The notes under the pieces are model-generated. The model was not told the DNA's origin. It searched no databases and was given only the letters and a program-made list of their open reading frames with translations. A program made the position numbers and the translations under genes. Source: a virus. From it: a stretch of DNA of 64,000 nt. The stretch lies in IMG/VR virus record IMGVR_UViG_3300035034_002581. One strand, 5' to 3'. Shown here one piece after another: positions 4,686 through 60,277 of the stretch (the stretch's first letter is position 1; each line of letters starts with the position of its first letter).

Positions 4686-4731
4686 GTCATGACTGTCAAT
4701 AAACTAGAGAAACACATTTTGTAAAGGCAAA

Positions 4732-4799
4732 TATTGATGCGTTTTTAGTTATCTACCCTGATACAACCATAAGGGCAAGAAGGCAAAAACGCATCAATA
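4732..4799 (-). promoter_or_regulatory. Perfect 15-bp inverted repeat enclosing a 38-nt loop, just downstream of the methyltransferase stop codon. Putative terminator or regulatory hairpin.
   Basis: tattgatgcgttttt occupies 4732-4746 and aaaaacgcatcaata occupies 4785-4799. The pair lies in the 115-nt gap between CDS 4801..6870 and CDS 4248..4685. Confidence 0.35.
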
Positions 4800-4800
4800 A

Positions 4801-6870
4801 TTACCGTCTGGGTATAAATACGAGGATCGGTTCTGTAAGAGGCTTACTAACTGACTTTTTGCGAGAGAAATGATCTCGACCTGCACTCAAGTAAAAGGTT
4901 TCAACGAGCTCAAGACCAGCAGACTTAGCAGATTCAATCACGTCCTTCTCAAGCGCACGTGAGATATTGATGACGACCCTTCCATTATGTGCTAAATGAT
5001 TTTTAGCACGTGTAAGCGTAGGCACTAAGTACAGATCTTTCCAGGCATCAATATTCGGATAATCTCTCCAGCATTGTCCAGGTTCATCAAAGTATTTTTC
5101 AAGATCAAAATACGGTGGGCTTGTAAATACTAGGTCAAAACTGTTGTACTCATCAAATTTGACACATTCACTACCCGATTTAATGACACTAACTTGATTG
5201 ATGAATTTCCCTTTTTTGAGCTTGTTGCCCAAAGCAGTTAATTCATGAGACAAAGACACACCAGGTTCTGTACACGTATAAGAACCTTCGGGAAACATCG
5301 CTGCAAATCCAAGCATTCTAGCGCCGAATCCGCCAGAAGGATCCCACACAGAGGGTTTTTCTAAGTGCCCTAAAAACCTTTGATAGATCACGGCAGCGGC
5401 AGTTGGCTTGAAAAAACTCACAGCTTTTCTTTGTACAATAAATCCCCGTCTGATTGTGCTAAAGCTTATGTCGAAGTGTTCGTTAGTAGAAAACATTTCG
5501 CCATTGTCAAGTTGATATTCGTACTTTTTTGAGTTGTTTATTCCGAGACGATATCTAAGCACTGCATTGAATGATTTATCATCCATAAAAGATGCCACAG
5601 GACCATCAGACACATGCCAAAAAGATTTGATGTGTTCCTTTAGATATGCATTTCCAACGACTCCGAGTGAACTAATCGGTTCTTTGTGACAATCTCGCAG
5701 ACCAATCTTTCTGACGCTTACCAGAGTCTCTCTCAGGCTTTTCCTTGATTTGGGATAGAACCAATCATTAGCGCTTACAAAAGCTCTCATAAACTCGCGT
5801 ATAGCAGGCAGATAAACGTTTTCTGTCCACTCTTTCCCTTTGCCTCCAAGTTCTACATGGTTTTGTTCAATAAGCTTGCTTCGCGTCAAAAAGCGCGTCT
5901 TGTCATCGAATTTTTGTCTTTCATCTTTAATGATAGAACCTGATATGTCCTGGTGATAATATGCTAAGTCAATGAGTTCCTGAATTGTTGTTGCGTTTTT
6001 CCAGTTACATGTGCTGTTGATTCGTATCAGTGACTTCTCTTCAAGTTTTGCGATCTCGTTCTTTTTAAGATCATTTGTCATTCCTGATAGTTGTGAGACT
6101 GTGAAGTTCTCGCTTCGATCTAAGCCGTGCCAAAATACGCCATCGAATTCAATCAGCAAGTTATGTGAAGGTATGAAAGCGTCAAAACATTTCGTGTATT
6201 CTGCACTATTGACCCAGTAACTATCAACTACTTTATCATTCTTTGACGCTGCTGTCAATACTTTGATGAAAGCTTGTTCTTTCTTCGATGTGTTTGTTAG
6301 ATTTCTTGACATGTTTGCGAGCGAGATCTTCTTCTTAAATTCATCTGTGAAAATCTTCTTGTACATTTCATCATAGTTCTCTCGCCAGACTTTCTTACGC
6401 AGTTTTGATATAGATTCTGTGGTCCAACCATTGTCTACATATTGTGTCTTTCTTTTAAGCTCCCAACGTTCTCTCTTTTCATTGTCTTGCCAGGCTGCTT
6501 CTAGTGATTTTGAGATCTTTGCCTTTATTGACTTACTGTTCTCTTTATAAGCACGCCTAATTGCAACATTTCTGTCTTTGACTTGTTCTTTCGTAAACGT
6601 AGGCTGTTTGTTTGCTGTGAATCTATTGTTGTGCCCATTGACGTATTCGCCAAAACAATACTTTGTCTTCTTCCACTTGACGTCTTCTCCGCAACCGCAT
6701 TTACACTTCGGATTAATTCCGTTAAGGTAAAACTGCAAGACATAACTTTGAATATCGTATCCATTGTGTGATCTTGCAAGGTGATTGCCGAGTGATCTTC
6801 TATTTTTACAATACTTTTCACAGAGCTTGCATGTATGATCATCGAACAGTTTTAAATAGTTAAGTGACAT
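4801..6870 (-). CDS. Multidomain protein: N-terminal C2H2-type zinc finger, Vsr/DUF559-like PD-(D/E)XK endonuclease domain and C-terminal SAM-dependent DNA (N6-adenine or N4-cytosine) methyltransferase
   Basis: A 689-aa ORF with three recognisable parts. The N-terminus has HTCKLCEKYC...HLARSH and CKCGCG...C zinc-ligand patterns. At aa 228-250, FDAFIPSHNLLIEFDGVFWHG matches the Vsr core (PDF...GCFWHG). At aa 510-518, DPSGGFGAR is motif I, and at aa 583-587, FTSPPYF is motif IV (DPPY class). Confidence 0.6.
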   Translation of the reverse strand: MSLNYLKLFDDHTCKLCEKYCKNRRSLGNHLARSHNGYDIQSYVLQFYLNGINPKCKCGCGEDVKWKKTKYCFGEYVNGHNNRFTANKQPTFTKEQVKDRNVAIRRAYKENSKSIKAKISKSLEAAWQDNEKRERWELKRKTQYVDNGWTTESISKLRKKVWRENYDEMYKKIFTDEFKKKISLANMSRNLTNTSKKEQAFIKVLTAASKNDKVVDSYWVNSAEYTKCFDAFIPSHNLLIEFDGVFWHGLDRSENFTVSQLSGMTNDLKKNEIAKLEEKSLIRINSTCNWKNATTIQELIDLAYYHQDISGSIIKDERQKFDDKTRFLTRSKLIEQNHVELGGKGKEWTENVYLPAIREFMRAFVSANDWFYPKSRKSLRETLVSVRKIGLRDCHKEPISSLGVVGNAYLKEHIKSFWHVSDGPVASFMDDKSFNAVLRYRLGINNSKKYEYQLDNGEMFSTNEHFDISFSTIRRGFIVQRKAVSFFKPTAAAVIYQRFLGHLEKPSVWDPSGGFGARMLGFAAMFPEGSYTCTEPGVSLSHELTALGNKLKKGKFINQVSVIKSGSECVKFDEYNSFDLVFTSPPYFDLEKYFDEPGQCWRDYPNIDAWKDLYLVPTLTRAKNHLAHNGRVVINISRALEKDVIESAKSAGLELVETFYLSAGRDHFSRKKSVSKPLTEPILVFIPRR

Positions 6871-6935
6871 TTAGACCTCTATACATTCTATTGAGACTTA
6901 CTTCCTTGTATAGGTATCATGACATCAATGATCGA

Positions 6936-6972
6936 GAAAACAAAAAAGGCGTCCTCTTTGCAGAGGACGCCT
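6936..6972 (-). terminator. Rho-independent terminator after the major capsid protein gene
   Basis: On the minus strand the sequence reads aaggcgtcctct-gcaa-agaggacgcctt (a 12-bp perfect stem with a 4-nt loop), followed immediately by TTTTTTGTTTT. It lies 20 nt downstream of the MCP stop codon. Confidence 0.8.
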
Positions 6973-6992
6973 TGATTAAAGTGCTGCCAGAA

Positions 6993-8918
6993 TTAGATAA
7001 TGTTAAGGTCGAGAACCGTAACTGTACCGTAGAAGTCGGCACGTACCATCTTCTTGCCGTATCTGGTCATAACACCTTTACGTGGTGTGAAGTCTTCCGG
7101 AGCGAAGATTGTTGGTGTCACGATGAGTGGGACATACGGAGCATAGACGTATCCAGTCTCGAGGTATGAACCGCCCTTGTAACCAACAAGGATCTTCTGG
7201 CGTGGGAAGTATGGGTCCTTGTAGACCGTGAATCTGTTAGTAAGTGTACCAACGGATTCTGCACCAATGCTGAATGGCGCGCCAACCTGTCCCATTCCAT
7301 CGATTGAAAGCTGCGGCTTGTAAAGCACGGAGGACTCAAGGATGGTGCAGATGTCAGGTGAAGTCACGATGAAGTTCGCGGAACCTCGAAGTGTCTTTCT
7401 GTGAATCTGGTTAGCAACGTCGATGATTGTCTCAGTTAGCGTCTCGTACCATTCGCGGACGTTACCGGTGAATGTAGGACCTGTTGCAAGTGTGCTAGAA
7501 AGATTCTGGACTACGCCATTTGTCTTGTTAACGAACTTACCAGGAGCACGTGACCAGTAGAAGTTTGCACCACGAGCTTCAGTTAGAAGGTCGTTGAGGA
7601 TCTCACGGTCGATCTCAAGAGCAATCTGCTCAGAAAGAATCTGTGTAAGTTCAACTTCTGCGTCGAGGCTGTGGTACGCGTTGAGGTCCTGAGCAAGCTC
7701 TGGAGACCAACGAGCACGTAGCTTACGAGTTGTTGCTGTAACGGCAATTGACTCAACCTTGATGTCGATTTCAGGAATCTGTGGCGATGGTGAAGTCGCG
7801 AAGTCAGACTCGAAACTTGGGATAGTGAGCGTTGAAGCATCACTGTCTACATCAAGGGATGCACCGATTGCGTAAGAACCTGTGAGACCAACAGCAGCAG
7901 TAGTGTTAGCAGCCTTCTCCGGAACATAAGCACCGGAGACGACAACTAGAATCGCAGCGCCTGTATCAGAACGCCCAACTAGTGGGTTAGGTGTGAAGAC
8001 TCCGCCTGTGTACGTACCAAGCTGGTTGAGACGACGTAGGTTAAGAATGTTCTTGCCACCCTGGAAGGTGTCTGTAAGAGGTGTGAGACCTGCAGTAGTT
8101 GGAGCTTCTGAGAATACGGAGAAGTCCTTGATGTTACTAAGGTCAACATCAGATCCAATCTGGTTAAGGTTGAACACGAGGAACTGCCAGCGGCCAGATG
8201 CGTCATAAGTACCATCTGCTGCGTCTTCTTCGATTAGCGTACCAATCTGCGGGTCGAACATTGTAAGACGACCGTCTGTACCAGTTGCGTGCATCGAAGC
8301 ACCACCAGTAAGCGTCTGTCCAACACCCCAAGAACCAGAAGCAAGAAGCGCGAGCTCATTGCCAGTAGTTGTTGCGTGTACCTTCGAGAACGTAGAACCT
8401 ACGAGGTCGTACTGTCCACCAGTTGCAAGTGAACCGGAACGAACACCCTTGCCTGTTGGAGAGTTGTAAATCGACTGACCTGCACGGTAAGTCTCTGCCG
8501 ACGCAGCGCCTTCAGCACCAGTCTGGAGACTTGCGTCACCACCGACATTTGTACCATACGTGTAGTCAAGGTAGAATAGGAGGCCAGATGGAAGGCTCAT
8601 TGGCTGAATTGAGACGAGCTCATTCGCTACGAGACCACCGAAAACACGACGAACGATTGGGAACGCAATGTTACTGAATCCTCTGATGTCGCCAGATCCT
8701 GTTCCGCCACCACCGCCAGTTGACAATGTGCTGGTTTCTCTAAGAAGCTGAGACGCCTGGTTTTCAAGGAGACGCGACATAACTTCGCGCTTCTCTTCCT
8801 TTAGGTTACGAAGAAGACCTGTACGGCTCCACTTCTCAACCAATCGCTGACCACCATTTCTTAGGTGACGAGAGCGAATACCCTCAGTCAGCTGCTCTAA
8901 TGTAAAATCTTTACCCAT
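6993..8918 (-). CDS. Major capsid protein (T4 gp23 family)
   Basis: A 641-aa ORF. The segments IVRRVFGGLVANELVSIQPMSLPSGLLFYL, ELAQDLNAYHSLDAEVELTQILSEQIALEIDREILN and YKGGSYLETGYVYAPYVPL...TRYG align to the remembered gp23 blocks (VRRAIPNLIAFDICGVQPMNSPTGQVFAL; ELAQDLRAVHGMDADAELSGILATEIMLEINREVVD; GYKGPNEMDAGIYYAPYVAL...TRYG). Confidence 0.85.
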   Translation of the reverse strand: MGKDFTLEQLTEGIRSRHLRNGGQRLVEKWSRTGLLRNLKEEKREVMSRLLENQASQLLRETSTLSTGGGGGTGSGDIRGFSNIAFPIVRRVFGGLVANELVSIQPMSLPSGLLFYLDYTYGTNVGGDASLQTGAEGAASAETYRAGQSIYNSPTGKGVRSGSLATGGQYDLVGSTFSKVHATTTGNELALLASGSWGVGQTLTGGASMHATGTDGRLTMFDPQIGTLIEEDAADGTYDASGRWQFLVFNLNQIGSDVDLSNIKDFSVFSEAPTTAGLTPLTDTFQGGKNILNLRRLNQLGTYTGGVFTPNPLVGRSDTGAAILVVVSGAYVPEKAANTTAAVGLTGSYAIGASLDVDSDASTLTIPSFESDFATSPSPQIPEIDIKVESIAVTATTRKLRARWSPELAQDLNAYHSLDAEVELTQILSEQIALEIDREILNDLLTEARGANFYWSRAPGKFVNKTNGVVQNLSSTLATGPTFTGNVREWYETLTETIIDVANQIHRKTLRGSANFIVTSPDICTILESSVLYKPQLSIDGMGQVGAPFSIGAESVGTLTNRFTVYKDPYFPRQKILVGYKGGSYLETGYVYAPYVPLIVTPTIFAPEDFTPRKGVMTRYGKKMVRADFYGTVTVLDLNII

Positions 8919-8951
8919 TTCTATTTTCTCCTAAAGAATTAATTTCTTCGC

Positions 8952-10451
8952 TTACTTGTTGTTTTTGATGCCTGCAAGTGTTGCCCATCGTTCAGTCTGG
9001 TTAGAACCTTCAGATAGTGTACGTGAGCTTCCGCCGCCCCTAGAGGCTCTTGACGAGGAACTACGACGTCCACCTTCATTCAAAGAACTAGCAGTCTTAC
9101 GACGCTTGCCACTTGCTGATTCGTTAACAGTCTTGTATATCAATCTAACTTCTCTCAAAGTCTTAGCCTTATCAACCGTTTCCACGATACTCTTGAGAGA
9201 TCTCTTGGAAATTGATTCATTCTGCATAAGCTTATTCACGTAGAGTAACTTAGAGTTGAACAGATTCATCTGTTCAAGGTGCTCACGGAGTTTAGAAGTT
9301 ACCTTCTTCAATCCGGATACCTGGTTGCGAAGAACTCGATTCTGGCGGTTCTCTTTCTTAAGCTTCTTCTTGAGCGTGTCATGAACGTTAAGGTTGCTAT
9401 CATCGCTATCGACGAAAGCCTCACGATCCTTCTTTGCTCCTCCGAAATCTGTAACGCCGTCACCCTCATCGAGTGAAGACCTCATGCGAGCAAGCTCTCT
9501 CTTGAGCATTGCTTCGTCAATTTCAACGACTTCATCGTCGTCTTCTTCATCATCTTCCATGTCGTCGTCATCTTCATCGTCCATGTCCATGTCGTCCATG
9601 TCCATTTCTTCATCGTCCATGTCATCGTCGACGGAACCCTGTAGGACGTCAAGAAGCTGCTGTGCAAGATCTTCAGGGATCTCAACGTCGCCACCTTCCT
9701 CATCGTCTACATCCATGTCCATGTCCATGTCGTCTTCAACGTCCATATCGTCGTCTTCAACTTCATCATCCATGTCCATGTCCATGTCGTCGTCTTCAAT
9801 GTCACTTTCATTTAGACCAAGTTCAGCGAGGTCGACATTAAATACCTCGTTGCTTTCTTTTAGTTTCTGCTTACGCGAAGCCATTTCAACAATCTCCTTG
9901 CGAACTTTTTGAATTTCAGAACTCATTGCAGCATGATTGCCGTATGAGCCCTCTCGAACTATACCTATTACATCGTTTTCCAAAGTTTTTGATTCGCTAA
10001 GCATTTTGGTTACTAAACGATCAAGTATTTGCTTACCGTTGCCGCCTCTAGAAGCATTTGATTCTGCGAGCTCCTTAGCGAGTTGCAGCTTAATAGTGAC
10101 GCGGTCATACTTTTCTTTAATGCCTTCTAGAGTCTCAGCCTCTTTAACGGCGTCTCGACCTTCAAGTAAAGATGCTAGAATTTTTGCACCCTCTTCATTT
10201 AGAAGAATATCTTTTTTGCTCTTAGAACCTTCTGAGAGATTTTCTGTGTTATCTCCCAGCAATTCATCAGCAACTTCGGTAAAAACATCAGAACTAGCAT
10301 CTGTGTCTTCTCCAAGTAGTTGTTTTTCTATCATCTCGCGTATACGAGGTGTGATTGCTTCGACAAGTGCATTTTTTGCATTGTCTTCTGCGATGGATCG
10401 AAGCTTTTTAGCATCGAGAAGTGCATCGTTAAAAATTGATGTATCAGACAT
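8952..10451 (-). CDS. Prohead scaffolding core protein (gp22-like), extremely acidic
   Basis: A 499-aa ORF directly upstream of the MCP gene. It has a long D/E/M-rich tract (DDDMDMDMDDEVEDDDMDVEDDMDMDMDVDDEE...) and coiled-coil flanks, as in T4 gp22. Confidence 0.65.
   Translation of the reverse strand: MSDTSIFNDALLDAKKLRSIAEDNAKNALVEAITPRIREMIEKQLLGEDTDASSDVFTEVADELLGDNTENLSEGSKSKKDILLNEEGAKILASLLEGRDAVKEAETLEGIKEKYDRVTIKLQLAKELAESNASRGGNGKQILDRLVTKMLSESKTLENDVIGIVREGSYGNHAAMSSEIQKVRKEIVEMASRKQKLKESNEVFNVDLAELGLNESDIEDDDMDMDMDDEVEDDDMDVEDDMDMDMDVDDEEGGDVEIPEDLAQQLLDVLQGSVDDDMDDEEMDMDDMDMDDEDDDDMEDDEEDDDEVVEIDEAMLKRELARMRSSLDEGDGVTDFGGAKKDREAFVDSDDSNLNVHDTLKKKLKKENRQNRVLRNQVSGLKKVTSKLREHLEQMNLFNSKLLYVNKLMQNESISKRSLKSIVETVDKAKTLREVRLIYKTVNESASGKRRKTASSLNEGGRRSSSSRASRGGGSSRTLSEGSNQTERWATLAGIKNNK
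9536..9800. repeat. Low-complexity tandem codon repeat (gacatg/gacgac units) encoding DMD/DDE tracts of the scaffold protein
   Basis: catgtccatgtccatgtcgtc-type units recur twice within about 260 nt. Confidence 0.6.
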
Positions 10452-53737: not shown

Positions 53738-54064
53738 CTACTCCCCCTGTTCTTCAATTGCTGTCGTATCTATAGCTGCTGTCATTGAATTAGCAACATA
53801 GAGTATTGCATCTCTAGTCATACTTATGTCCTCGATCGCCCGCCGGACTTCAGGACTATCGAAAAATATGTCTTTTTCAAGTAGTTTAGACAGGGAATCA
53901 TACCTTTCATCAAAAATATCAAGAGAGGCTTCGATCGCTGATTGGACGTCCAGGATTACTAAGCCCCACTTGTAGTTAATTAACAAAGAAGCTAATAGAA
54001 GCACAGCAAGAGAAATTGTCATAGAAATCAAGGCTGCGAACCACAGTGTTGGTATTTGAATCAC
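53738..54064 (-). CDS. Small membrane protein (single N-terminal TM helix)
   Basis: A 108-aa ORF. LWFAALISMTISLAVLLLASLLI is a predicted transmembrane segment. Confidence 0.4.
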   Translation of the reverse strand: MIQIPTLWFAALISMTISLAVLLLASLLINYKWGLVILDVQSAIEASLDIFDERYDSLSKLLEKDIFFDSPEVRRAIEDISMTRDAILYVANSMTAAIDTTAIEEQGE

Positions 54065-55227
54065 TTAAAATATCCATCTAGTTCTTTGTTATACTTTTCT
54101 TCAACTGAAGCCTGACTAAACTCTTTCTGTATCTTCACACTTAATTCTTTAGCCCAATCAGCTGGTGCTTCAGAGCCATTTCTAAACTTTTTGATTTTTT
54201 TCTTAAAATCTTTCTCGTTTGGCTGTGCCCAGCTAGTATTGGGAAGAAAAATTTGATTGTCAACTCTTTCTTTTGGAATCGGTATCATAGAGTAGTTAAT
54301 TTTTATGAACTTACCTAGATTCATAAAATCTAGATGTCCAGACCAGTTTGTTGCTACGACTGGCAAACCTGAAGCGGCGGCTTCTAGAATTGGTAGACCG
54401 AAGCCTTCGCCCCTTGTTAGATTGACTAGAGCTTTTACATCGTCTCTTCTATAGAGACCAACCATCTCTGATGTTGTCATATTGCCGTGCAGTAAATACA
54501 CAGCAGGATACTGTCCTTTTCTGTTCTCTTGTAAGAATCGATTTAACATTACCTGTGTGTTCTTTCTATCAATAGAAGTGTTTCTGCTGCTATTTGTTTT
54601 CAATATGATACCTACATTAGGATCGTTATGAAAAGCATCACAGAGCCACTTCAGGGTTCCGAAAGTATTCTTTCTATCGCTATTGCTATCGTTACCTGTA
54701 ATTTGGCCGACCATTAGAAAATTAAAGCTAGTACTAAGCTCAAGATCAAGAGATGATGTGTCTTCATCAAATACATCTTCAAAAAACGATTCATGAATAA
54801 CAGAGACTTTTGTGCTTGTCTTTCCTGTTCTTTCAATTGTTTCTTTGACATGGCTTGATGGAACAACTACGTGATTCATCGAATTACAGCATGCTAACCA
54901 CTCTGGATTACATTTATCTGTCTCTACAAAAGCTGATACGCCGATGTTCGTCTTTGCCAATGCGGGATCCCACTCATTAGGTAACAAAACCTGGACTGAT
55001 ACGTCAGCATGATGTTGAACACTAATTGACGTGGAACACGCCATAATTTTTCCAATTAGCCCTTTCTCAACGTCAGGATCTAAATACCAGGAAGTTCTTC
55101 CCCACGGAACGATCTGTGTTATTAGCTTAATGTCATTTCGATTTGAAAGCCATCGAAATATTTGTCTGGAGTGGACGCCATATCCACTAGCTGATAGTAG
55201 CGGTGCACGAAGAATAACTGTCTTCAT
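54061..55227 (-). CDS. Glycosyltransferase, GT4 family
   Basis: The ORF-track start at 55320 overlaps the upstream gene. The likely start is MKTVILRAP at 55227. GEGFGLPILEAAASGLPVVATNWSGHLDF is an E-x7-E GT4 motif. Confidence 0.65.
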   Translation of the reverse strand: MKTVILRAPLLSASGYGVHSRQIFRWLSNRNDIKLITQIVPWGRTSWYLDPDVEKGLIGKIMACSTSISVQHHADVSVQVLLPNEWDPALAKTNIGVSAFVETDKCNPEWLACCNSMNHVVVPSSHVKETIERTGKTSTKVSVIHESFFEDVFDEDTSSLDLELSTSFNFLMVGQITGNDSNSDRKNTFGTLKWLCDAFHNDPNVGIILKTNSSRNTSIDRKNTQVMLNRFLQENRKGQYPAVYLLHGNMTTSEMVGLYRRDDVKALVNLTRGEGFGLPILEAAASGLPVVATNWSGHLDFMNLGKFIKINYSMIPIPKERVDNQIFLPNTSWAQPNEKDFKKKIKKFRNGSEAPADWAKELSVKIQKEFSQASVEEKYNKELDGYFK

Positions 55228-55228
55228 A

Positions 55229-56485
55229 TTATTTCCCCTCGATCTTTGTGCAAGACCATCTTGTGTAGTTTTCTTTCCAGTTCTTGATTGTGTCTTTGAG
55301 AGTTTCATCCCACTTATCAATTGTGTCTTGATGATTAAACTCAGACTTTACATAATCTATGCACTTCTTGCCTAGCTCTTTTCGACCTTCTGGTCCAAAG
55401 TTGTACATTTTTAAGAACCCCTCAGCTACTGTCTCTATAGTAACGTAGTCTTCGTAAATGTAAGGTACTTGTTGGGATCCGACTAGTGATTTTGTTTCAA
55501 CGGGTAGAGCGACTCCGTTCTCAGAACCATCTCTGTGATCCACAACTTGTCGTGTCAAACCACCGGTCTTTACAGCAATGATGGGTGTTCCAGTTTGCAT
55601 AGCCTCAAGGGTACCAAGACCAAAACCTTCTGCAAAAGAAATATTTACATAGCAGTCAGCAATGTTGTGAAGAACATTTATTTTTTCAAAGTTCAATCTA
55701 TCTCGCGAGAAGATAATGTTAGGGACAACGCCGAATGCTTCAGCGGTCGCAAAAAGATTAGGACCCTCAGAATCAGTAGGATCTGTGTGCATAATGAGAG
55801 ATGCATTTCTATGACCATGTTCTTCTTCAAGTCTGTCAAGGAATTTTGCCCAAGATGCAATAACATCGTTTGGGCGCTTCCGCTTCGCGTTTCTATTAAT
55901 CCAGAGAGCAACGAAATGATCTTTGCGATCTGGACCTAGAATCTGTGGTTTGAGTGTCTTGATTGCGTCGTCTTCAAGTTTAAAAAACAATTCTTCTGGC
56001 AAAGAGTGTGGTATAAAGTTTGTCTTTTCTGGAAAGTTCTCTGAAACCATCTCGAATGTAAGATGTGAATGACAGTTGATAAGATCTGTTGCATCATACA
56101 AAGGATTGTTGAAGATTGGTGTAGGCCTATTATCCCAGACATGCCACCAGACTATTGGGCAAATCTGATGTATCTCGTCTTCCATTTCAAACAACCATAT
56201 GAAGAACCTTGGATCTGTGAAGATAAAAAGTGCGTCGGGTTTTTCTTGAGCAAGAATTAAGCGAAGCATATCCGGACTTCCAAATCCATCAATTGGTTTG
56301 ATGATAAAGTCTGGATTTACGACGGTGACATTATAGTCTTGATGCTTAATTGCTGCACCGAGTTGCCTAAATGTCCAGTCACCTTTCTTGATTAGTCCGT
56401 TGATTAAGTGTCTACTCTGTGTACCTACGCCTGACGTTGATAGTGCGTGGTCAGAGATCATCAAAATCTTTTTCTTTTCTGACAT
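55229..56485 (-). CDS. Glycosyltransferase, GT4 family
   Basis: A 418-aa ORF with AEGFGLGTLEAMQTGTPIIAVKTGGLTRQV. Confidence 0.65.
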   Translation of the reverse strand: MSEKKKILMISDHALSTSGVGTQSRHLINGLIKKGDWTFRQLGAAIKHQDYNVTVVNPDFIIKPIDGFGSPDMLRLILAQEKPDALFIFTDPRFFIWLFEMEDEIHQICPIVWWHVWDNRPTPIFNNPLYDATDLINCHSHLTFEMVSENFPEKTNFIPHSLPEELFFKLEDDAIKTLKPQILGPDRKDHFVALWINRNAKRKRPNDVIASWAKFLDRLEEEHGHRNASLIMHTDPTDSEGPNLFATAEAFGVVPNIIFSRDRLNFEKINVLHNIADCYVNISFAEGFGLGTLEAMQTGTPIIAVKTGGLTRQVVDHRDGSENGVALPVETKSLVGSQQVPYIYEDYVTIETVAEGFLKMYNFGPEGRKELGKKCIDYVKSEFNHQDTIDKWDETLKDTIKNWKENYTRWSCTKIEGK

Positions 56486-56538
56486 GTTTCCTCACAAAAA
56501 GCTTAGTCAATCATACCAGCCATTGCTGAGAAAGTTAA

Positions 56539-57393
56539 TCAAATCAATTTGCAGTGTTCTGTTTCAAAGAACTCACAGAATTTGCAGCTGTATCTATTCT
56601 TAAGGTGCATCCTTCTGTTGACAAGAGTGAACATACTCTTTACTTTCTTGACAGCTCTCTCAATAGTGACTGGACCCGCTGATACTTTGAGAATAGAACA
56701 TCTGTTGCCGCTTGACTTCTTTGTCATGTCCGGGTTGTTTCGCTTAAGAAGCACGAAGGCACATTGAATAGATTTGTAATCAATCTTATGCTTTTGCGCC
56801 CAAAAATACTTATAGAGCACTAATTGCATTCTGACATTGTTGTCACGTCGCTTCTGTGGGTGCCATCCACCATTTCCGGCAGTTTTCCAGTCAATAATGT
56901 AATACTTAGTCTTTCCTTTCTTCTCAACTTTAATGATTGCGTCGATGAAACCCTTGAAGTAAAATCCAGTGTCAAGGAAAGGTTCTCTAAATCTTTCTTC
57001 TACTGCGACTACTTCCCAGCCGGGATATTGTTCTTCCATAAATGATGGAACACTAGCTAACATATTTTCTGCTGTGTCTAGCCAATATTGAAGAACAGGA
57101 ACTGCAGACTTATACTCTGGCCAATTATCTACGTCTGGGTAGCCGCGCTCTTCCCAAAAAGTTTTGATTTCAGATAGTGCTGACGCCGTGTCCATCTTTC
57201 GTGTTTGTAGGTAGCCTTCACAAGCTGTGTGAATTGCTTTTCCAAAGTCAGAGTATATGCTGTCTTCAAAGTCAGAAAGTTTGTCAATGTGGATAAGCTT
57301 GTGTGCCCACCCACATTCAATCCAAGTCTTAAGCTCAGAAAATGATATGTGACCCTTTCCAGTAGGTAGGGTAAGTTCTTTTTGATTAGTCAT
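56539..57393 (-). CDS. PD-(D/E)XK nuclease, Cas4 / RecB-exonuclease-like, with an Fe-S-type Cys cluster
   Basis: A 284-aa ORF. IDAII...YYIIDWKT is the D...D/ExK motif. QLVLYKY is QxxxY. There is an N-terminal Cys (IECGW) and a C-terminal CKFCEFFETEHC. Confidence 0.55.
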   Translation of the reverse strand: MTNQKELTLPTGKGHISFSELKTWIECGWAHKLIHIDKLSDFEDSIYSDFGKAIHTACEGYLQTRKMDTASALSEIKTFWEERGYPDVDNWPEYKSAVPVLQYWLDTAENMLASVPSFMEEQYPGWEVVAVEERFREPFLDTGFYFKGFIDAIIKVEKKGKTKYYIIDWKTAGNGGWHPQKRRDNNVRMQLVLYKYFWAQKHKIDYKSIQCAFVLLKRNNPDMTKKSSGNRCSILKVSAGPVTIERAVKKVKSMFTLVNRRMHLKNRYSCKFCEFFETEHCKLI

Positions 57394-57424
57394 ACCCTTA
57401 TTATACTACTTTGTGTCAGATTTT

Positions 57425-58336
57425 TTAATACTTTAAGATCATATCTACAAGCTTGAACTTTGGTGCCCAGCCGAGCATTAATTTTCCCTTTGTATTGTCT
57501 GCTCGTGTCTCTTGAGCCTCACCTGGTCGCTCGGGCACATTTACTTGGTTATCACTAATCATGTCAGCTATCTGATTTACAGAGTAATTCATTCCTGTGC
57601 CGACATTAACTACTTGGTGTGGTATATCTTTCTTAAAGACATCTGCTGTACTCTTAGATGAAGCTACTATGTTTGCCGAGACAACATCGTCGACATAAGT
57701 AAAATCGCGTCTTTGCTCTCCGTCACCGACGATAGTTAGTGGCTCGCCTGCTTCTTTTTGGCGCTTAAATATGCCAATGACAGGTGCGTACCTCCCCTTT
57801 AATGGTTCACGAGGACCATAGACATTAAAGTATCTCAATACGACAGTTTCAATTCCATGCATTCTAGAATATAGCTTACAAACTTGCTCTCCTTGATATT
57901 TAGAAAGAGAGTACGGGTTAAGACAGTCTGATGTCATATTTTCTCTATGTGGTGCATTCTGTTGCCCATAAAAAGAAGAGCTACCGGCATATACAACACG
58001 CTTTACTCCGTGCTTAACGGCAGCTTCTAAGACACATTGAGTGCCTATAACATTGTTTTCAAATGTATGACGTGCTTCATTGAATGCAGGTTGAATTCTT
58101 GAACGTGCCGCCAAGTGAAATACAACATCAACACCCTTGTATAGCTTTACTGTAGATGGATCAGATATATCTTTGTTGACATACTTGACCTTCTTTAGTT
58201 TTGTAAATTCAAAGAACTCACCATTTTCAGGCGCGCTTTCATCGTCTATAACGATGACTTCATGCCCATCTTTTGCAAGTGCCTCTGTTAGGTGGGATCC
58301 AATAAATCCCTTTCCACCTGTCACTAAGTATTTCAT
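57425..58336 (-). CDS. NAD-dependent epimerase/dehydratase (SDR), UDP-glucuronate decarboxylase (UXS) / GalE-like
   Basis: A 303-aa ORF. The N-terminus LVTGGKGFIGSHLTEALAKDGHEVIVIDD is a Rossmann motif resembling UXS [28 protein letters not shown]. YSLSK is the YxxxK motif. Confidence 0.6.
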   Translation of the reverse strand: MKYLVTGGKGFIGSHLTEALAKDGHEVIVIDDESAPENGEFFEFTKLKKVKYVNKDISDPSTVKLYKGVDVVFHLAARSRIQPAFNEARHTFENNVIGTQCVLEAAVKHGVKRVVYAGSSSFYGQQNAPHRENMTSDCLNPYSLSKYQGEQVCKLYSRMHGIETVVLRYFNVYGPREPLKGRYAPVIGIFKRQKEAGEPLTIVGDGEQRRDFTYVDDVVSANIVASSKSTADVFKKDIPHQVVNVGTGMNYSVNQIADMISDNQVNVPERPGEAQETRADNTKGKLMLGWAPKFKLVDMILKY

Positions 58337-58363
58337 CTGTTGTTTCTTCCTTTATACTGCGTT

Positions 58364-58750
58364 TTAGTCTTCTGACACTGCTCGACCTGTCATACTTAAC
58401 CAATCTCTTTCTTCGAATGGCCTAACTTCATCATTCTTTTTATTGACTGCATGTAAGACAAGAGGTTGTACATCAAGAGATTTAGCAAGAGAAATCATTG
58501 CATTGACGTCTTTTGGAAAACAATTGTGAGTCACGACGCAAGAATTTTCTTCAACCCAGAATAGATCATCTTCAGTATGCGATTGAGAAACTAGTTCAAG
58601 ATTGTAGACTTGGCCTGAAAACTTTTCCCTCGTAATACTTTTTATTTTGGTTTCGCTAATAGGCCCTGCGTTCTGAGGTTCAAATCGTCTATCTGACTCT
58701 CTAGCGACCTGTTTGAATTTCTTTACATTTTCTGTCATATTGTGACTCAT
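58364..58750 (-). CDS. Downstream half of the fractured ugd gene: C-terminal intein segment (IntC, about 76 aa) followed by a truncated Ugd C-extein of 52 aa that begins at the catalytic Cys
   Basis: GQVYNLELV is block F. DDLFWVEENSCVVTHN|C is block G, ending in HN followed by Cys+1. The extein CFPKDVNAMISLAKSL matches the Ugd active-site region GG(S)CFPKDVLNLVYL. The ATG overlaps the upstream endonuclease stop codon (ATGA). Confidence 0.6.
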   Translation of the reverse strand: MSHNMTENVKKFKQVARESDRRFEPQNAGPISETKIKSITREKFSGQVYNLELVSQSHTEDDLFWVEENSCVVTHNCFPKDVNAMISLAKSLDVQPLVLHAVNKKNDEVRPFEERDWLSMTGRAVSED

Positions 58751-59087
58751 ATTAGTACACCTAGTTTTTGTAAGTCATCCTTGAACAACATAATCAAGTT
58801 GATTTCAGGATTGTCTCGTGTTATCTGGTCGAACTTTTTACGCTGGATGCTAAAGCGGTATTTGTTTTTGACTTCAACGTACGCATTCCAATCTGTAAGG
58901 TAAAAGTCGGGGAAGTAAGTTCGCTTTATTGCCCATCGAAGTATTTAATTGTACCTCTATGGGCAATAAAGTTTATTTCTTGTTTATCTAGCCACGTTGC
59001 AAATGCGAGCTCCCACGTTCCTTGCACTTTGATAGTTTCGCCTGTTCTTTTAGAAAGACTACTTGCATCATACTTTATAAACGTCAT
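58747..59087 (-). pseudogene. Free-standing PD-(D/E)XK (Vsr / DUF559-like) homing endonuclease gene lying between the split-intein halves, with its frame disrupted
   Basis: The ATG at 59087..59085 overlaps the TGA of the upstream ORF (ATGA). Frame 1 encodes MTFIKYDASSLSKRTGETIKVQGTWELAFATWLDKQEINFIAHRGTIKYFDGQ*. A frame shifted by +2 then encodes ...TYFPDFYLTDWNAYVEVKNKYRFSIQRKKFDQITRDNPEINLIMLFKDDLQKLGVLI*, with PDF...(E)VK motifs, and its stop overlaps the next ATG. Removing the 26 nt at 58912-58937 restores a single 105-aa ORF. Confidence 0.55.
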
Positions 59088-60277
59088 GATGAAATCAAAG
59101 TGAATTTTGGAGCCGTACTCTCAACTGTAAATAATATGTCTGTTTCTAGGACATCCTCGGCTTTGACAATTAGATGTTGTCCATCTCTTTTAATAGGCAT
59201 CAAATGTTCAGGTGTGCACTTAAAGAGTATGTTTTCACCTGGACGTCCGATGTCAAATACAATAAGCTCACCTTCAAAATCATTGCGAGTGACATCAGAT
59301 ACTCGCTTCCCGCCCCTGGTAAGGCTTTTACAGCCTGGATTGGCGCTCTTTATTTTAAAGTAGTCTTTTGGCGGCATTGAATGAAAAAGTTCATATAACT
59401 CTTCGATTGTAACCTTACCTTCATATACATCATGGATATCACGATCAGTAATATCAGCTCCATTGCTTCCTGGTATGACGTAAGATAGGTACATTGCAGA
59501 AATTAATGAATCACCAGGAACGCAATGACCGCCGAATCCTAGCGAACCATCTGGACCAGGTACTGTCAAATGTGTATCACCGATCCTCTCATCATGAAGT
59601 GTATACTCAACAACTTTATCATAGTCAATGTTGATAGCATCACATATCTGCTTCATTTCATTTGCAAATGATACCTTAGTTGCAAGGAAGCAATTAGTGA
59701 AGTACTTGACAAACTCTGCTTCTGTTGAACCTGTTTTTACTATTGTGACATTAGGAAAAGCTGCTGAGAATACTTGCTTAACTATTGTTGATGCTGGACG
59801 AGGACCACCAATAATAATCCTGTTCTGTTCTCGCATATCGTCGATAGCGTTTGCCTCTGTCAAGAATTCAGGATTAAAGACAACTGTCAGGCCTGAACTT
59901 CTGTACTTGGCATTCCAGATCTTTGTTGTTCCAGGTGGTATCGTTGACTTTACTACTGCGATCCTATCTCCTGGAATTTCTGAAAGCTCATCAAGTACAG
60001 ATTCAACTATTCTTATGTCTGCTGAGCCATCTTTTCTCATTGGCGTTGGGACACAAACAAAGTAGATTTTAGACTGTGCTCTTTCAAGCGTTTGAACTAA
60101 TTCGTGAACAGACTGCTGGTGAGCGTATCGCCTATGAGGCTTTAGATAGTTATTTCCTTTATCAAATGCAAAAACGTTAAAACCACGTTCTAAAAACACT
60201 GTAGCTAGGCTACCACCTACAAACCCTTGGCCAATTACACCTATTGTATCTTCTTTGTTTTTCACAAATTCTCCCAT
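59084..60277 (-). CDS. ugd: Upstream half of the fractured ugd gene: UDP-glucose 6-dehydrogenase N-extein (about 251 aa) fused to an N-terminal intein segment (IntN, about 146 aa)
   Basis: The NAD-binding motif is IGVIGQGFVGGSLA. The sequence ...LGFGGH immediately precedes C|VPGDSLIS (Hint block A), and TPEHLMPI is block B. The ORF stops 146 aa after the intein start, with no endonuclease domain in frame. Confidence 0.65.
   Translation of the reverse strand: MGEFVKNKEDTIGVIGQGFVGGSLATVFLERGFNVFAFDKGNNYLKPHRRYAHQQSVHELVQTLERAQSKIYFVCVPTPMRKDGSADIRIVESVLDELSEIPGDRIAVVKSTIPPGTTKIWNAKYRSSGLTVVFNPEFLTEANAIDDMREQNRIIIGGPRPASTIVKQVFSAAFPNVTIVKTGSTEAEFVKYFTNCFLATKVSFANEMKQICDAINIDYDKVVEYTLHDERIGDTHLTVPGPDGSLGFGGHCVPGDSLISAMYLSYVIPGSNGADITDRDIHDVYEGKVTIEELYELFHSMPPKDYFKIKSANPGCKSLTRGGKRVSDVTRNDFEGELIVFDIGRPGENILFKCTPEHLMPIKRDGQHLIVKAEDVLETDILFTVESTAPKFTLISS

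What the first reader, a model, noticed from the sequence alone, without database searches (positions are those of the whole stretch)
4801..6870. DNA methyltransferase fused to a zinc finger and a Vsr-like nuclease domain. This is the same nuclease family as the ugd homing endonuclease.
A single 689-aa ORF combines three parts: a C2H2-like zinc finger, a Vsr-type core FDAFIPSHNLLIEFDGVFWHG, and a C-terminal SPPY methyltransferase. Vsr-like domains are the catalytic modules of a rare homing endonuclease family. The second copy in this window is the free-standing endonuclease in the ugd locus. This protein could be a homing-endonuclease::methyltransferase fusion. It might also be a self-contained restriction-modification-like or nicking module, or a methylation-directed mismatch nicking enzyme. 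It sits immediately after the major capsid protein terminator, a typical landing site for mobile cassettes.
Basis: partly seen in the sequence, partly recalled or inferred. Interest (0 to 1): 0.65.

Follow-up and report, generated by a model that had tools for sequence, protein, structure and literature searches.

The report
Homing endonuclease fused to DNA methyltransferase
A T4-like phage carries, directly behind its major capsid gene, one protein that joins a complete mobile-gene-type DNA-cutting enzyme to a complete DNA-methylating enzyme; this pairing recurs in hundreds of uncultured phages, I found no paper describing it, and it may be a selfish gene that protects its own genome by methylation.

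Summary

The gene is accessory. Only 1 of 50 MCP-related loci carries it, yet in 8 of 9 carriers with readable context it is the first gene after the gp23 terminator. That slot is a hot spot for zinc-finger nuclease genes. A nuclease-only form lies at the same site in inverted orientation, and methyltransferase-only forms lie 3-4 kb away. The same methyltransferase unit is also fused to HNH, HNH-repeat and DUF7487/TnsA-like modules.

Best reading: a free-standing homing endonuclease that carries its own methyltransferase, probably for self-protection. That step is inferred, not shown.

The claimed "second copy" at ugd is a different family: DUF7487/TnsA-like and frameshifted. Novelty: new variant of a known kind.

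The parts
4801..6870 (-). Whole gene: 689-aa zinc-finger / Vsr-like nuclease / methyltransferase fusion protein (stop codon 4801-4803)
   Evidence: ORF listing; 72 near-full-length homologs; 98 full-length members aligned; AlphaFold model with pLDDT 88.6 and pTM 0.71
6730..6843 (-). aa 10-47: C2H2 zinc finger (C14, C17, H30, H35)
   Evidence: The four ligands are invariant in 29 sequences and present in 92-93 of 98 (the rest are gaps). Pfam C2H2 hits are weak in the query. zf-C2H2_4 is above its cut-off in the L089 homolog
6625..6711 (-). aa 54-82: second zinc-type cluster CxCGCG...GHN (C56, C58, C60, H80)
   Evidence: Invariant and present in 96-98 of 98. The same module heads the TnsA-type and GNAT-type nuclease genes found in the same slot
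6286..6600 (-). aa 91-195: basic helical repeats, the presumed DNA-binding region
   Evidence: Seven helices in the model. Conserved R/K-rich repeats. Pfam NUMOD3 is not detected in any of 29 members but is detected in more distant relatives
5971..6285 (-). aa 196-300: Vsr-fold (EDxHD-type) nuclease domain; D230, E241, D243, F246-W247, H248, D267, K270
5431..5970 (-). aa 301-480: middle domain, the N-terminal part of the methyltransferase unit (possible target-recognition region)
   Evidence: No PDB fold match. It travels with the Rossmann domain in stand-alone proteins of 365-420 aa and in giant-virus methyltransferases aligned over about 395 columns
4804..5430 (-). aa 481-689: Rossmann-fold amino-methyltransferase; motif I VWDPSGGFGAR (508-518), motif IV FTSPPYF (582-588)
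6936..6973 (-). Intrinsic terminator of the MCP gene (12-bp stem, 4-nt loop, T-tract), 20 nt after the MCP stop
   Evidence: the repeat finder I2; terminator scan. Equivalent hairpins follow the MCP stop in other carriers
6885..6912 (-). Promoter-like site (TATACA-16-TAGAAT) between the terminator and the gene start; a consensus match only
   Evidence: Consensus scan; function not shown
6993..8918 (-). gp23-type major capsid protein gene; its 3' flank is the conserved landmark of the insertion slot
   Evidence: phrog_138 at 8e-76. A Gp23 Pfam gene lies upstream of the homolog in L002, L003, L085, L086, L087, L092 and L093
4726..4805 (.). 21-nt inverted repeat arms flanking a 38-nt spacer, overlapping the stop codon; the spacer is inverted in the ~99%-identical genome L066
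   Evidence: 37/38 identity when reverse-complemented, 16/38 directly

Best explanation
The gene encodes a free-standing homing endonuclease of the Vsr-like (EDxHD) kind that has captured a complete DNA amino-methyltransferase in the same polypeptide.

Shown by computation:
- The N-terminal ~300 residues (two zinc modules, basic helical repeats, Vsr-fold nuclease with the EDxHD residues) have the layout of I-Bth0305I-type endonucleases and also exist as stand-alone genes.
- The C-terminal ~390 residues are a complete methyltransferase unit that also exists as a stand-alone gene.
- Both catalytic centres are conserved across the family.
- The gene is sporadic among related phages but sits in a fixed position, first after the major capsid gene's terminator.

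Inferred:
- During co-infection the zinc/helical module binds a sequence at or near the conserved 3' flank of the capsid gene in a relative that lacks the element. The nuclease nicks or cuts there, and recombinational repair copies the gene into the empty slot.
- The fused methyltransferase, delivered by the same DNA-binding module, methylates N4 of cytosine (suggested by TSPPY) or N6 of adenine at or near the target in the carrier genome. The carrier is then not cut by its own enzyme. This is restriction-modification logic inside one mobile protein.
For: Architecture and fold. EDxHD register: D230=Vsr D51, E241=F62 position, H248=H69, D267, against the family definition in PMC2677866 and PMC3239194. 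Conservation of both active sites in at least 95 of 98 members.

Sporadic presence: 1 of 50 MCP-retrieved loci with at least 2.5 kb downstream carries the gene.

Fixed position: it is the first gene, 99-272 nt after the gp23 stop, in the window, L002, L003, L085, L086, L087, L092 and L066, and second in L093, while the downstream neighbours differ each time. The MCP-gp13 interval varies from 154 nt to more than 9 kb.

The slot is a hot spot: genes sharing the zinc module but carrying TnsA-type or Vsr+GNAT-type domains sit there, scattered on the MCP tree. The nuclease-only homolog P0084 abuts the MCP 3' end in the opposite orientation. Methyltransferase-only forms lie 3.3-3.9 kb away, so position follows the nuclease half.

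Recurrent fusion: the same methyltransferase unit is also fused to HNH_3/NUMOD4, to HNH_repeat and to DUF7487/TnsA-like nuclease modules, and forms that lost the nuclease keep the zinc module. This argues for functional coupling.

T4 has a free-standing endonuclease gene, segD, in the equivalent 23/24 slot (PMC2988022).
Against: There is no biochemical or genetic evidence: cleavage, target, methylated base and protection are all inferred. Nuclease-only relatives occupy the same slot, so a methyltransferase is not required for such an element to persist. The stand-alone methyltransferase presumably has its own specificity and could simply be useful cargo. Among loci retrieved through the MCP, carriers form a single clade (WIN/L066 + L002). 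The other carriers were retrieved through the gene itself, so the patchiness is partly an effect of how they were found. There is no sign of recent transfer between the window and L066 (4.3 differences per kb in the gene against 2-10 in most flanks). No target-site difference between carriers and empty alleles was detectable in the last 90 nt of the MCP gene (inconclusive). Sequence-level matches of the query itself to Vsr are below the Pfam cut-off, and HMMER does not link the nuclease profile to 1cw0 or 3r3p.
Confidence: 0.45

Rival explanations
1. Beneficial cargo without biochemical coupling. The nuclease half is a homing endonuclease. The methyltransferase is an anti-restriction (orphan) methylase that protects phage DNA from host restriction enzymes. 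Fusion only ensures that the selfish nuclease gene is retained because deleting it would also remove a useful function. Methylation has nothing to do with the endonuclease's own target.
For: The methyltransferase unit is common as a stand-alone gene in the same island and in unrelated phages. Orphan methylases are common in phages (PMC11855218). Nuclease-only elements persist at the same site. T4 homing endonuclease genes are known to embed host-needed signals that favour their retention (PMC2988022).
Against: Adjacency would be enough for hitch-hiking. Instead there are translational fusions to at least four different homing-type modules, in both domain orders, and the zinc module is kept when the nuclease is lost. 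Both suggest the methyltransferase uses the endonuclease's DNA-binding module.
Confidence: 0.22
2. A phage-encoded single-chain restriction-modification enzyme (Type IIC/IIG-like) used as a weapon rather than for homing. The nuclease cuts unmethylated host or competitor-phage DNA at many short sites, while the methyltransferase protects the phage genome. The position next to the capsid gene reflects only a generic hypervariable island.
Against: A generic island does not explain why the gene is the first one after the MCP terminator in 8 of 9 carriers, why a nuclease-only relative sits at the same junction inverted, or why other nuclease genes sharing the zinc module pile up at that junction. 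There is no C-terminal target-recognition domain as in Type IIG enzymes; DNA binding looks homing-endonuclease-like (long, modular). No relatives were found in 185,579 cellular genomes, where restriction-modification enzymes normally live.
Confidence: 0.18
3. A methylation-coupled very-short-patch repair enzyme, analogous to Dcm-Vsr. The Vsr-like domain nicks mismatches created by deamination at the sites that the fused methyltransferase modifies.
For: The best fold match is the repair enzyme Vsr itself, and the intercalating F/Y-W pair is kept. In bacteria vsr is genetically linked to dcm (established knowledge, summarised in PMC3424549).
Against: The methyltransferase is an exocyclic-amino type ((D/S)PPY), not a C5-cytosine methylase, so deamination would not create the T:G mismatch that Vsr repairs. 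The invariant Glu at the Vsr Phe62 position, together with N-terminal modular DNA-binding domains, is the homing-endonuclease signature (PMC2677866). Sporadic distribution, a fixed insertion site and swapping with HNH and TnsA-like nucleases do not fit a repair function.
Confidence: 0.03
4. The reverse history. The methyltransferase gene is the resident 'host' gene and homing target, and endonuclease modules have invaded its ends in frame. This would resemble the HNH element inside a mycobacteriophage methylase gene. The fusion would then be an accident of insertion.
For: A precedent exists for a homing HNH element inside a phage methylase gene (PMC11855218). Several unrelated nuclease modules are attached to either end of the same methyltransferase unit.
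Against: Position follows the nuclease half, not the methyltransferase: the fusion and the nuclease-only form lie at the MCP junction, while methyltransferase-only forms lie 3-4 kb away. The fusion is stable and dominant (93 of 172 retrieved proteins have all five modules) with both active sites conserved.
Confidence: 0.07

Closest known systems
I-Bth0305I and the EDxHD (Vsr-like) homing endonuclease family (Dassa et al. 2009, PMC2677866; Taylor et al. 2011, PMC3239194; PDB 3r3p)
   Same: Modular N-terminal DNA-binding region followed by a Vsr-fold nuclease. Residues equivalent to Vsr D51, H69 and D97, plus the family-specific Glu at the F62 position and the F/Y-W pair. Phage-borne, and known as free-standing inserts.
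Type IIC/IIG single-chain restriction-modification enzymes (e.g. BpuSI, PDB 3s1s; DrdV, 7lo5)
   Same: One polypeptide with an N-terminal PD-(D/E)XK-superfamily nuclease followed by an amino-methyltransferase with motif I before motif IV. The implied logic is that methylation protects against the enzyme's own nuclease.
   Different: No C-terminal target-recognition domain. The nuclease is of the Vsr/EDxHD clade. DNA binding is by N-terminal zinc and helical modules. It is found in lytic-type phage genomes at a fixed junction with sporadic distribution, and was not found in cellular genomes.
Free-standing homing endonuclease genes of T4-like phages, especially segD between genes 23 and 24 of T4 (PMC2988022)
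   Same: An intergenic endonuclease gene immediately downstream of the major capsid gene of a T4-type phage, sporadic among relatives. The nuclease-only relative P0084 is even inverted relative to its neighbours, as segD is.
   Different: SegD is a GIY-YIG enzyme of unproven activity and carries no modification domain. Here the nuclease is Vsr-like and is fused to a methyltransferase.
Stand-alone phage and giant-virus (S/D)PPY DNA methyltransferases (e.g. Vibrio phage 2.058.O NVP2058O_092, 'N-4 cytosine-specific DNA methylase'; Pithovirus proteins in BFVD)
   Same: 36% identity over aa 482-685. The whole middle + Rossmann unit superposes on giant-virus proteins of 354-375 aa with TM about 0.6. 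The TSPPY motif is shared.
   Different: Those proteins lack any nuclease or zinc-finger module. Their specificities are annotations, not tested for these exact proteins.
ShiLan-type hidden HNH endonuclease inside a mycobacteriophage methylase gene (PMC11855218)
   Same: Physical association of a homing-type nuclease with a phage DNA methylase gene.
   Different: There the HNH is an out-of-frame insertion that uses the methylase gene as its homing site. Here nuclease and methyltransferase are in-frame domains of one conserved protein, and the position tracks the capsid gene.

Membership tests
EDxHD / Vsr-like homing endonucleases | Catalytic domain with the Vsr fold | tested here: met
EDxHD / Vsr-like homing endonucleases | Composite motif: Glu at the Vsr F62 position, Asp (Vsr D51), general-base His (H69), second Asp (D97), plus the F-W intercalating pair | tested here: met
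   D230, E241, D243, F246-W247, H248 and D267 are invariant or nearly so in 29 sequences and in 98 sequences. The register to the Vsr sequence was reproduced by hhalign, though with low probability and against a Vsr sequence entered from memory. The assignment D267=D97 is by order and conservation only.
EDxHD / Vsr-like homing endonucleases | Sequence-profile similarity to Vsr (Pfam PF03852 / DUF559 PF04480) | tested here: inconclusive
   Query: PF03852 at E=0.0085, 16.4 bits against a cut-off of 27. 2 of 29 members reach E<=0.01. The distant fused homolog in LR756508.1 reaches 27.3 bits. A HMMER profile of the domain finds neither 1cw0 nor 3r3p in the PDB.
EDxHD / Vsr-like homing endonucleases | N-terminal NUMOD-type modular DNA-binding region | tested here: inconclusive
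   NUMOD3 is not detected in any of 29 members. Zinc fingers and basic helical repeats occupy that place. NUMOD3 is detected in distant relatives (L089 homolog at 19.4 bits, below the 20.4 cut-off; the ~470-aa class in 4 of 6 members).
EDxHD / Vsr-like homing endonucleases | Mobile-element genomic behaviour: sporadic presence at a fixed site in related genomes | tested here: met
   1 of 50 MCP-retrieved loci carries it. It is first after the MCP terminator in 8 of 9 carriers. A nuclease-only form lies at the same junction inverted.
EDxHD / Vsr-like homing endonucleases | Site-specific cleavage of the element-free allele, and gene conversion (homing) | not testable with these tools
   Requires enzyme assays and co-infection crosses.
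Beta-class N6/N4 DNA methyltransferases (Pfam PF01555 N6_N4_Mtase) | Profile match above the curated threshold | tested here: inconclusive
   The query has no PF01555 hit at E<=10. 18 of 29 family members hit it (best 6e-9), and stand-alone relatives score 33-37 bits against a cut-off of 26.7, but only over profile positions 1-108 of 221, the (D/S)PPY half.
Beta-class N6/N4 DNA methyltransferases (Pfam PF01555 N6_N4_Mtase) | Beta-class motif order: motif IV (D/S)PPY before motif I (FxGxG) | tested here: not met
   Motif I (DPSGGFGAR, aa 510-518) precedes motif IV (TSPPY, aa 583-587). That is the order seen in gamma-type enzymes, consistent with PF02384 N6_Mtase hits in relatives (29.9 bits against 20.4) and with the top fold matches Trm11, Trm14, TrmN, METTL5 and PrmC.
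N4-cytosine-specific DNA methyltransferases | TSPP[FY] signature and demonstrated 4mC product | tested here: inconclusive
   F-T-S-P-P-Y is present and kept in 91-98 of 98 members. A 36%-identical Vibrio phage protein is annotated as N4-cytosine methylase through an InterPro signature. The product base cannot be determined here, and the closest solved folds are RNA m2G and m6A enzymes.
Type IIG/IIC restriction-modification enzymes | Single chain: N-terminal PD-(D/E)XK nuclease + gamma-type methyltransferase + C-terminal target-recognition domain | tested here: not met
TnsA-like / DUF7487 nucleases (the family of the ugd-locus endonuclease) | Classical PD...(D/E)xK motif and a PF08722 / PF24308 profile match | tested here: not met
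   The query has no such hit and carries ExDG...H instead. The ugd-locus ORF hits DUF7487 (2e-5) and TnsA-like (0.011) with 'PDF...VEVK'. Relatives of the query in which DUF7487 replaces the Vsr domain do exist (P0224, P0239).

The most novel reading that the evidence does not exclude
This protein is one example of a widespread, undescribed class of 'self-immunising' homing endonucleases. These would be mobile single-polypeptide restriction-modification elements in which a homing-type nuclease (Vsr-like, HNH or TnsA-like) is fused to a DNA-modifying enzyme. That enzyme is this methyltransferase, and perhaps a GNAT/Mom-like domain in the neighbouring gene class. It would mark the carrier genome so that only unmarked relatives are cut. 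Such a class would be a living intermediate between homing endonucleases and restriction-modification systems.
Probability: 0.35. Interest if true: 0.85.

Novelty: new variant of a known kind. Interest (0 to 1): 0.7.

Why it matters
Homing endonucleases and restriction enzymes share folds and a selfish lifestyle, but they are usually treated as separate solutions. Homing endonucleases normally avoid self-cleavage because their insertion or nearby polymorphisms destroy the target. Restriction enzymes avoid it through a partner methylase. A natural, abundant family in which a homing-type nuclease carries its own methyltransferase would show that the two strategies can be combined. The recurrence of the same fusion with three or four unrelated nuclease modules strengthens the case. 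Such a family would give a directly testable model for how one kind of element could evolve into the other. It would also explain how free-standing endonuclease genes can sit beside, rather than inside, a highly conserved essential gene.

In practical terms, the family offers compact proteins that combine programmable-looking DNA-binding modules, a nickase or nuclease and a methyltransferase. It also flags the capsid-gene 3' junction as a recombination hot spot in an abundant group of uncultured T4-like phages.

Tried and rejected
1. Near-identity DNA search of the phage collection found no match. The window phage is known only as IMG/VR contig UViG_3300035698_022074 (L066).
2. NCBIfam gave no hit.
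3. HMMER profiles of the whole family and of the nuclease domain against PDB sequences gave only marginal zinc-finger and methylase hits and no Vsr or 3r3p. The fold search was needed.
4. The search for a second copy of any module in the window by tblastn and five domain HMMs found only a 9-bit motif-level hit at 58750-58944, which turned out to be a TnsA-like nuclease.
5. Testing for recent horizontal transfer by comparing the window with L066 showed the gene is not distinctly more conserved than its flanks.
6. Comparing the last 90 nt of the MCP gene between carriers and empty alleles to find a protected or altered target showed no carrier-specific change. The comparison is confounded by phylogeny.
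7. I first labelled the aa 90-195 repeats NUMOD3-like, then withdrew that because no member reaches the Pfam profile.
8. I first labelled the ~470-aa neighbour class 'Mom-like', then downgraded it to 'GNAT-fold, with a sub-threshold Mom match in one of six'.
9. PHROG annotation of the neighbours of the HNH::methyltransferase fusion in L094 gave nothing informative.
10. A scan of 185,579 cellular genomes with the two most conserved motifs found no relatives.
11. The core-gene hypothesis, suggested at first by conserved synteny in three contigs, was rejected after the MCP-based survey showed the gene is absent from 49 of 50 relatives.
Full report
**1. The observation**

The window contains a single ATG-initiated ORF of 689 codons at 4801-6870 on the minus strand, exactly as reported. 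The quoted motif FDAFIPSHNLLIEFDGVFWHG is residues 229-249. A degenerate DNA pattern for its core occurs once in the window, at 6125-6150. TSPPY is residues 583-587.

Upstream on the same strand lies a 641-aa gp23-type major capsid protein (MCP) gene (6993-8918; phrog_138, E=8e-76). Other T4-type morphogenesis genes surround it: a gp21-like prohead protease, a head-tail adaptor and a tail sheath stabilizer. The MCP stop is followed after 20 nt by a 12-bp-stem hairpin with a T-tract (6973-6946). A promoter-like match follows (6912-6885), and then the ORF's ATG, 122 nt after the MCP stop. Base composition does not set the ORF apart from the bulk of the window (about 39-42% GC); the MCP gene is the GC-rich outlier.

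**2. One gene, not two**

A search of about 5.8 billion proteins returned 77 relatives. Of these, 72 cover 96-100% of the query at 37-56% identity and are 632-720 aa long, some on contigs of 100-250 kb. After further searches, 98 full-length members could be aligned. An exhaustive phmmer scan of 1.84 billion cluster representatives gave 142 hits at E<=1e-30 and 3,421 at E<=1e-3.

**3. Anatomy**

An alignment of 29 members (A1) and an AlphaFold model (pLDDT 88.6, pTM 0.71) define five modules:

- **aa 10-47:** a C2H2 zinc finger (C14, C17, H30, H35).
- **aa 54-82:** a second cluster, CxCGCG...GHN (C56, C58, C60, H80).
- **aa 91-195:** seven basic helices in repeats.
- **aa 196-300:** an alpha/beta nuclease domain with invariant D230, E241, D243, H248, D267 and K270.
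- **aa 301-689:** a helical/beta middle domain followed by a Rossmann fold, with motif I (VWDPSGGFGAR) before motif IV (FTSPPYF).

**4. The nuclease**

The papers that define the family describe Vsr-like homing endonucleases as keeping Vsr D51, H69 and D97, the intercalating F67-W68, and an additional invariant Glu at the F62 position (the 'EDxHD' motif), behind N-terminal modular DNA-binding motifs (PMC2677866, PMC3239194). The query matches that register: D230, then I-E241-F-D243-G-V-F246-W247-H248, then D267. A distant fused homolog in a 484-kb uncultured phage (LR756508.1) passes the Pfam Vsr cut-off (27.3 bits) and shows a near-threshold NUMOD3 match (19.4 bits against a cut-off of 20.4). 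In 98 members the nuclease residues are kept in 95-98 sequences. I conclude that the domain is an active-looking EDxHD/Vsr-clade nuclease.

**5. The methyltransferase**

- By sequence, aa 482-685 are 36% identical to a 330-aa Vibrio phage protein annotated as N-4 cytosine-specific DNA methylase.
- 18 of 29 family members hit PF01555, and 3 hit the gamma-type PF02384. Stand-alone relatives pass both cut-offs.
- In the viral structure library, giant-virus proteins of 354-375 aa (one annotated as a cytosine-N4 DNA methyltransferase) align over about 395 columns with TM about 0.6.
- A search with aa 300-689 alone found many stand-alone proteins of 365-420 aa.

So the middle domain plus Rossmann fold is one complete methyltransferase unit. 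The motif order (I before IV) is not that of the beta class that PF01555 models. TSPPY suggests N4-cytosine, but the modified base cannot be decided here. Motifs I and IV are kept in 91-98 of 98 members.

**6. Genomic behaviour**

At first the gene looked like a core gene. In every contig retrieved through the protein it lies just downstream of a Gp23 gene: L002, L003/L004, L085, L086, L087 and L092, with gaps of 99-272 nt. In L093 it is second, behind a TnsA-type gene.

Retrieval through the MCP instead changed this view. Of 80 IMG/VR loci with MCPs 62-98% identical, 50 have at least 2.5 kb downstream. Only one, L066, carries the gene, and L066 is essentially the same phage (about 99% DNA identity). 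The distance from the MCP to the next conserved gene (gp13-like) ranges from 154 nt to more than 9 kb, and the genes downstream of the fusion differ in every carrier. On an MCP tree, the carriers retrieved through the MCP form one small clade nested among non-carriers. The remaining carriers fall in a distant MCP group, but they were found through the gene itself, so that part is ascertainment-biased.

**7. The slot is a nuclease hot spot**

Domain HMMs run on all loci show that the first position after the MCP is often occupied by other genes that share the query's zinc module:

- **~265-aa proteins** ending in a TnsA-like PD...ExK nuclease (PF08722, 27.9 bits against 26.5).
- **~470-aa proteins** with NUMOD3, a zinc ribbon, a Vsr/DUF559-type nuclease (ExNG...H; MTES_1575 and Vsr hits) and a C-terminal GNAT-fold domain. 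One member of this class has a sub-threshold match to the Mom DNA-modification family.
- **Shorter zinc-finger ORFs.**

These classes are scattered over the MCP tree, in about 4 and 6 separate places. The phage T4 genome itself has a free-standing GIY-YIG endonuclease gene, segD, between genes 23 and 24, inverted relative to its neighbours (PMC2988022).

**8. Both halves exist separately, and position follows the nuclease**

- P0084 (306 aa) is the zinc-repeat-nuclease half alone and ends exactly at the middle-domain boundary. It abuts the 3' end of a Gp23 gene in convergent orientation, 53 nt away. At least 15 further nuclease-half representatives exist.
- P0074 (544 aa) and P0107 (500 aa) keep the zinc module and the methyltransferase unit but have lost the repeats and nuclease. 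P0074 lies 3.9 kb from the MCP, behind two other nuclease-type genes.
- The stand-alone methyltransferase P0123 lies 3.3 kb from the MCP in the same island.

This pattern fits successive insertions at the MCP junction that push older occupants outward, where they decay.

**9. Recurrent fusion**

The same methyltransferase unit is also fused to several other modules:

- NUMOD4 + HNH_3 at its C-terminus (P0156, P0160, P0161, P0171, P0172; PHROG HNH at 3e-35) or at its N-terminus (P0166, P0183, P0187, P0189).
- Four 'homing endonuclease associated repeats' (P0244).
- A DUF7487/TnsA-like nuclease, behind the same zinc N-terminus as the query (P0224, P0239).

At least four homing-type modules are therefore joined to one methyltransferase, in both orders. 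Of 172 proteins retrieved, 93 have all five modules of the query. No relative was found in 185,579 species-representative bacterial and archaeal genomes. I found no paper describing such fusions. [quoted passage not shown]

**10. Interpretation**

The domain identities, the conservation, the sporadic but site-fixed distribution, the hot spot and the recurrence of the fusion are shown by the computations above. The mechanism is inferred.

The N-terminal half is a free-standing homing endonuclease that targets the conserved MCP 3' flank of element-free relatives. The fused methyltransferase most likely marks the carrier genome at or near that target so that the element does not cut its own genome. 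The main support for coupling, rather than mere co-travel, is twofold: translational fusion arose repeatedly with unrelated nucleases, and the zinc module is retained when the nuclease is lost.

Evidence against or missing:
- Nuclease-only elements persist at the same site.
- The methyltransferase unit works as a stand-alone gene elsewhere.
- I could not detect target-site differences between carriers and empty alleles.
- There is no signature of recent transfer.

The rivals are beneficial cargo, a restriction-modification weapon, invasion of a resident methylase gene, and Dcm-Vsr-like repair. Each is scored separately with the result that would refute it.

**11. The 'second copy' claim**

The ugd locus does hold an endonuclease, but of another family. 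The UDP-glucose dehydrogenase gene is fractured. ORF 59084-60277 ends with GFGGHC followed by an intein-like N-part. ORF 58364-58750 ends an intein-like C-part with ...VVTHN and resumes with CFPKDV.... The ORF between them is split over two frames, and its joined product matches DUF7487 (2e-5) and TnsA-like profiles, with a PDF...VEVK motif. It is therefore related to the TnsA-type occupants of the MCP slot, not to the query's Vsr-type domain. The two share only the PD-(D/E)XK superfold.

**12. Verdict**

The protein is a new variant of a known kind: an EDxHD-type free-standing homing endonuclease fused to a complete DNA amino-methyltransferase. It belongs to a larger, apparently undescribed set of homing-nuclease::methyltransferase fusions in uncultured phages. 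Interest 0.7.

Noticed in passing
window 58364-60277 (minus strand): The UDP-glucose dehydrogenase gene is 'fractured'. The N-terminal and central domains end at GFGGHC and continue into an intein-like N-part (ORF 59084-60277). A separate ORF (58364-58750) ends an intein-like C-part with VVTHN and resumes the extein with CFPKDV. A small endonuclease ORF lies between them. This is the split-intein arrangement of Dassa et al. 2009. No UDPG_MGDP_dh C-terminal domain was seen in the second ORF.
   Followed up: partly
window 58750-59087 (minus strand): The endonuclease between the two ugd halves is split over two reading frames (MTFIKYD...KYFDGQ*, then KRTYFPDFYLTDWNAYVEVKNKY...). This could be a frameshift mutation, a sequencing error or recoding. 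The joined product matches DUF7487 (2e-5) and TnsA-like profiles.
   Followed up: partly
window 4726-4805; L066 10117-10193: A 38-bp spacer flanked by 21-nt inverted repeats, overlapping the stop codon of the 689-aa gene, is present in opposite orientations in two ~99%-identical genomes (37/38 matches when reverse-complemented). The spacer contains TTGCCC-17 nt-TAGATA, which points toward the downstream 145-aa ORF in the window. It could be a tiny invertible promoter or a template-switch inversion.
   Followed up: partly
L037, L038, L040 about 8055-9467; L063 7982-9400; L070 2652-4067; L045 7985-9457; L006 8857-10311; L089 3723-5435: A second class of fusion proteins occupies the same post-MCP slot. 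They have a zinc finger, NUMOD3, a zinc ribbon, a Vsr/DUF559-type nuclease and a C-terminal GNAT-fold domain. One of six members has a sub-threshold match to the Mom DNA-modification family. This may be a parallel nuclease + DNA-modifier design.
   Followed up: partly
window 8952-10451 (minus strand): The 499-aa ORF just upstream of the MCP is a hot spot of differences between the window and L066 (34 per kb, against 2-10 per kb in most neighbouring genes). It has almost no family match.
   Followed up: no
window 54061-61230 (minus strand): A cluster of sugar-nucleotide and glycosyltransferase-like genes surrounds ugd: two ~418-aa glycosyltransferase-like ORFs, an NAD-dependent epimerase/dehydratase-like ORF at 57425-58336 and a GDP-mannose dehydratase-like ORF at 60262-61230. 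These were judged by eye from the sequences only. The cluster is unusual cargo for a T4-like phage.
   Followed up: no
L002 1-100; L003 15831-17084: Related phage contigs show further selfish-element signs. In L002 the portal gene carries an Intein_splicing domain. In L003 a NifU-like gene has a weak Hint_2 match. Both come from precomputed Pfam hits.
   Followed up: no
P0077 (401 aa), C-terminal ~40 residues: A truncated family member ends with ...VTSIKPMSLPSSLIFYDENL, which resembles the MCP N-terminal motif QPMSLPSGLLFYLDYTYG. This suggests a recombination chimera between the endonuclease gene and a capsid gene.
   Followed up: no
L089 (LR756508.1 170000-180000): In a 484-kb uncultured phage the MCP is followed by two consecutive multi-zinc-finger nuclease fusions: a 570-aa GNAT-type protein, then a 644-aa methyltransferase-type protein with TSIPY instead of TSPPY. 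The hot spot and both fusion classes therefore extend to jumbo phages.
   Followed up: partly
L086 7353-7619: A Tad2-like (anti-Thoeris) gene lies just downstream of the fusion homolog on the opposite strand, so the island also carries counter-defence cargo.
   Followed up: no
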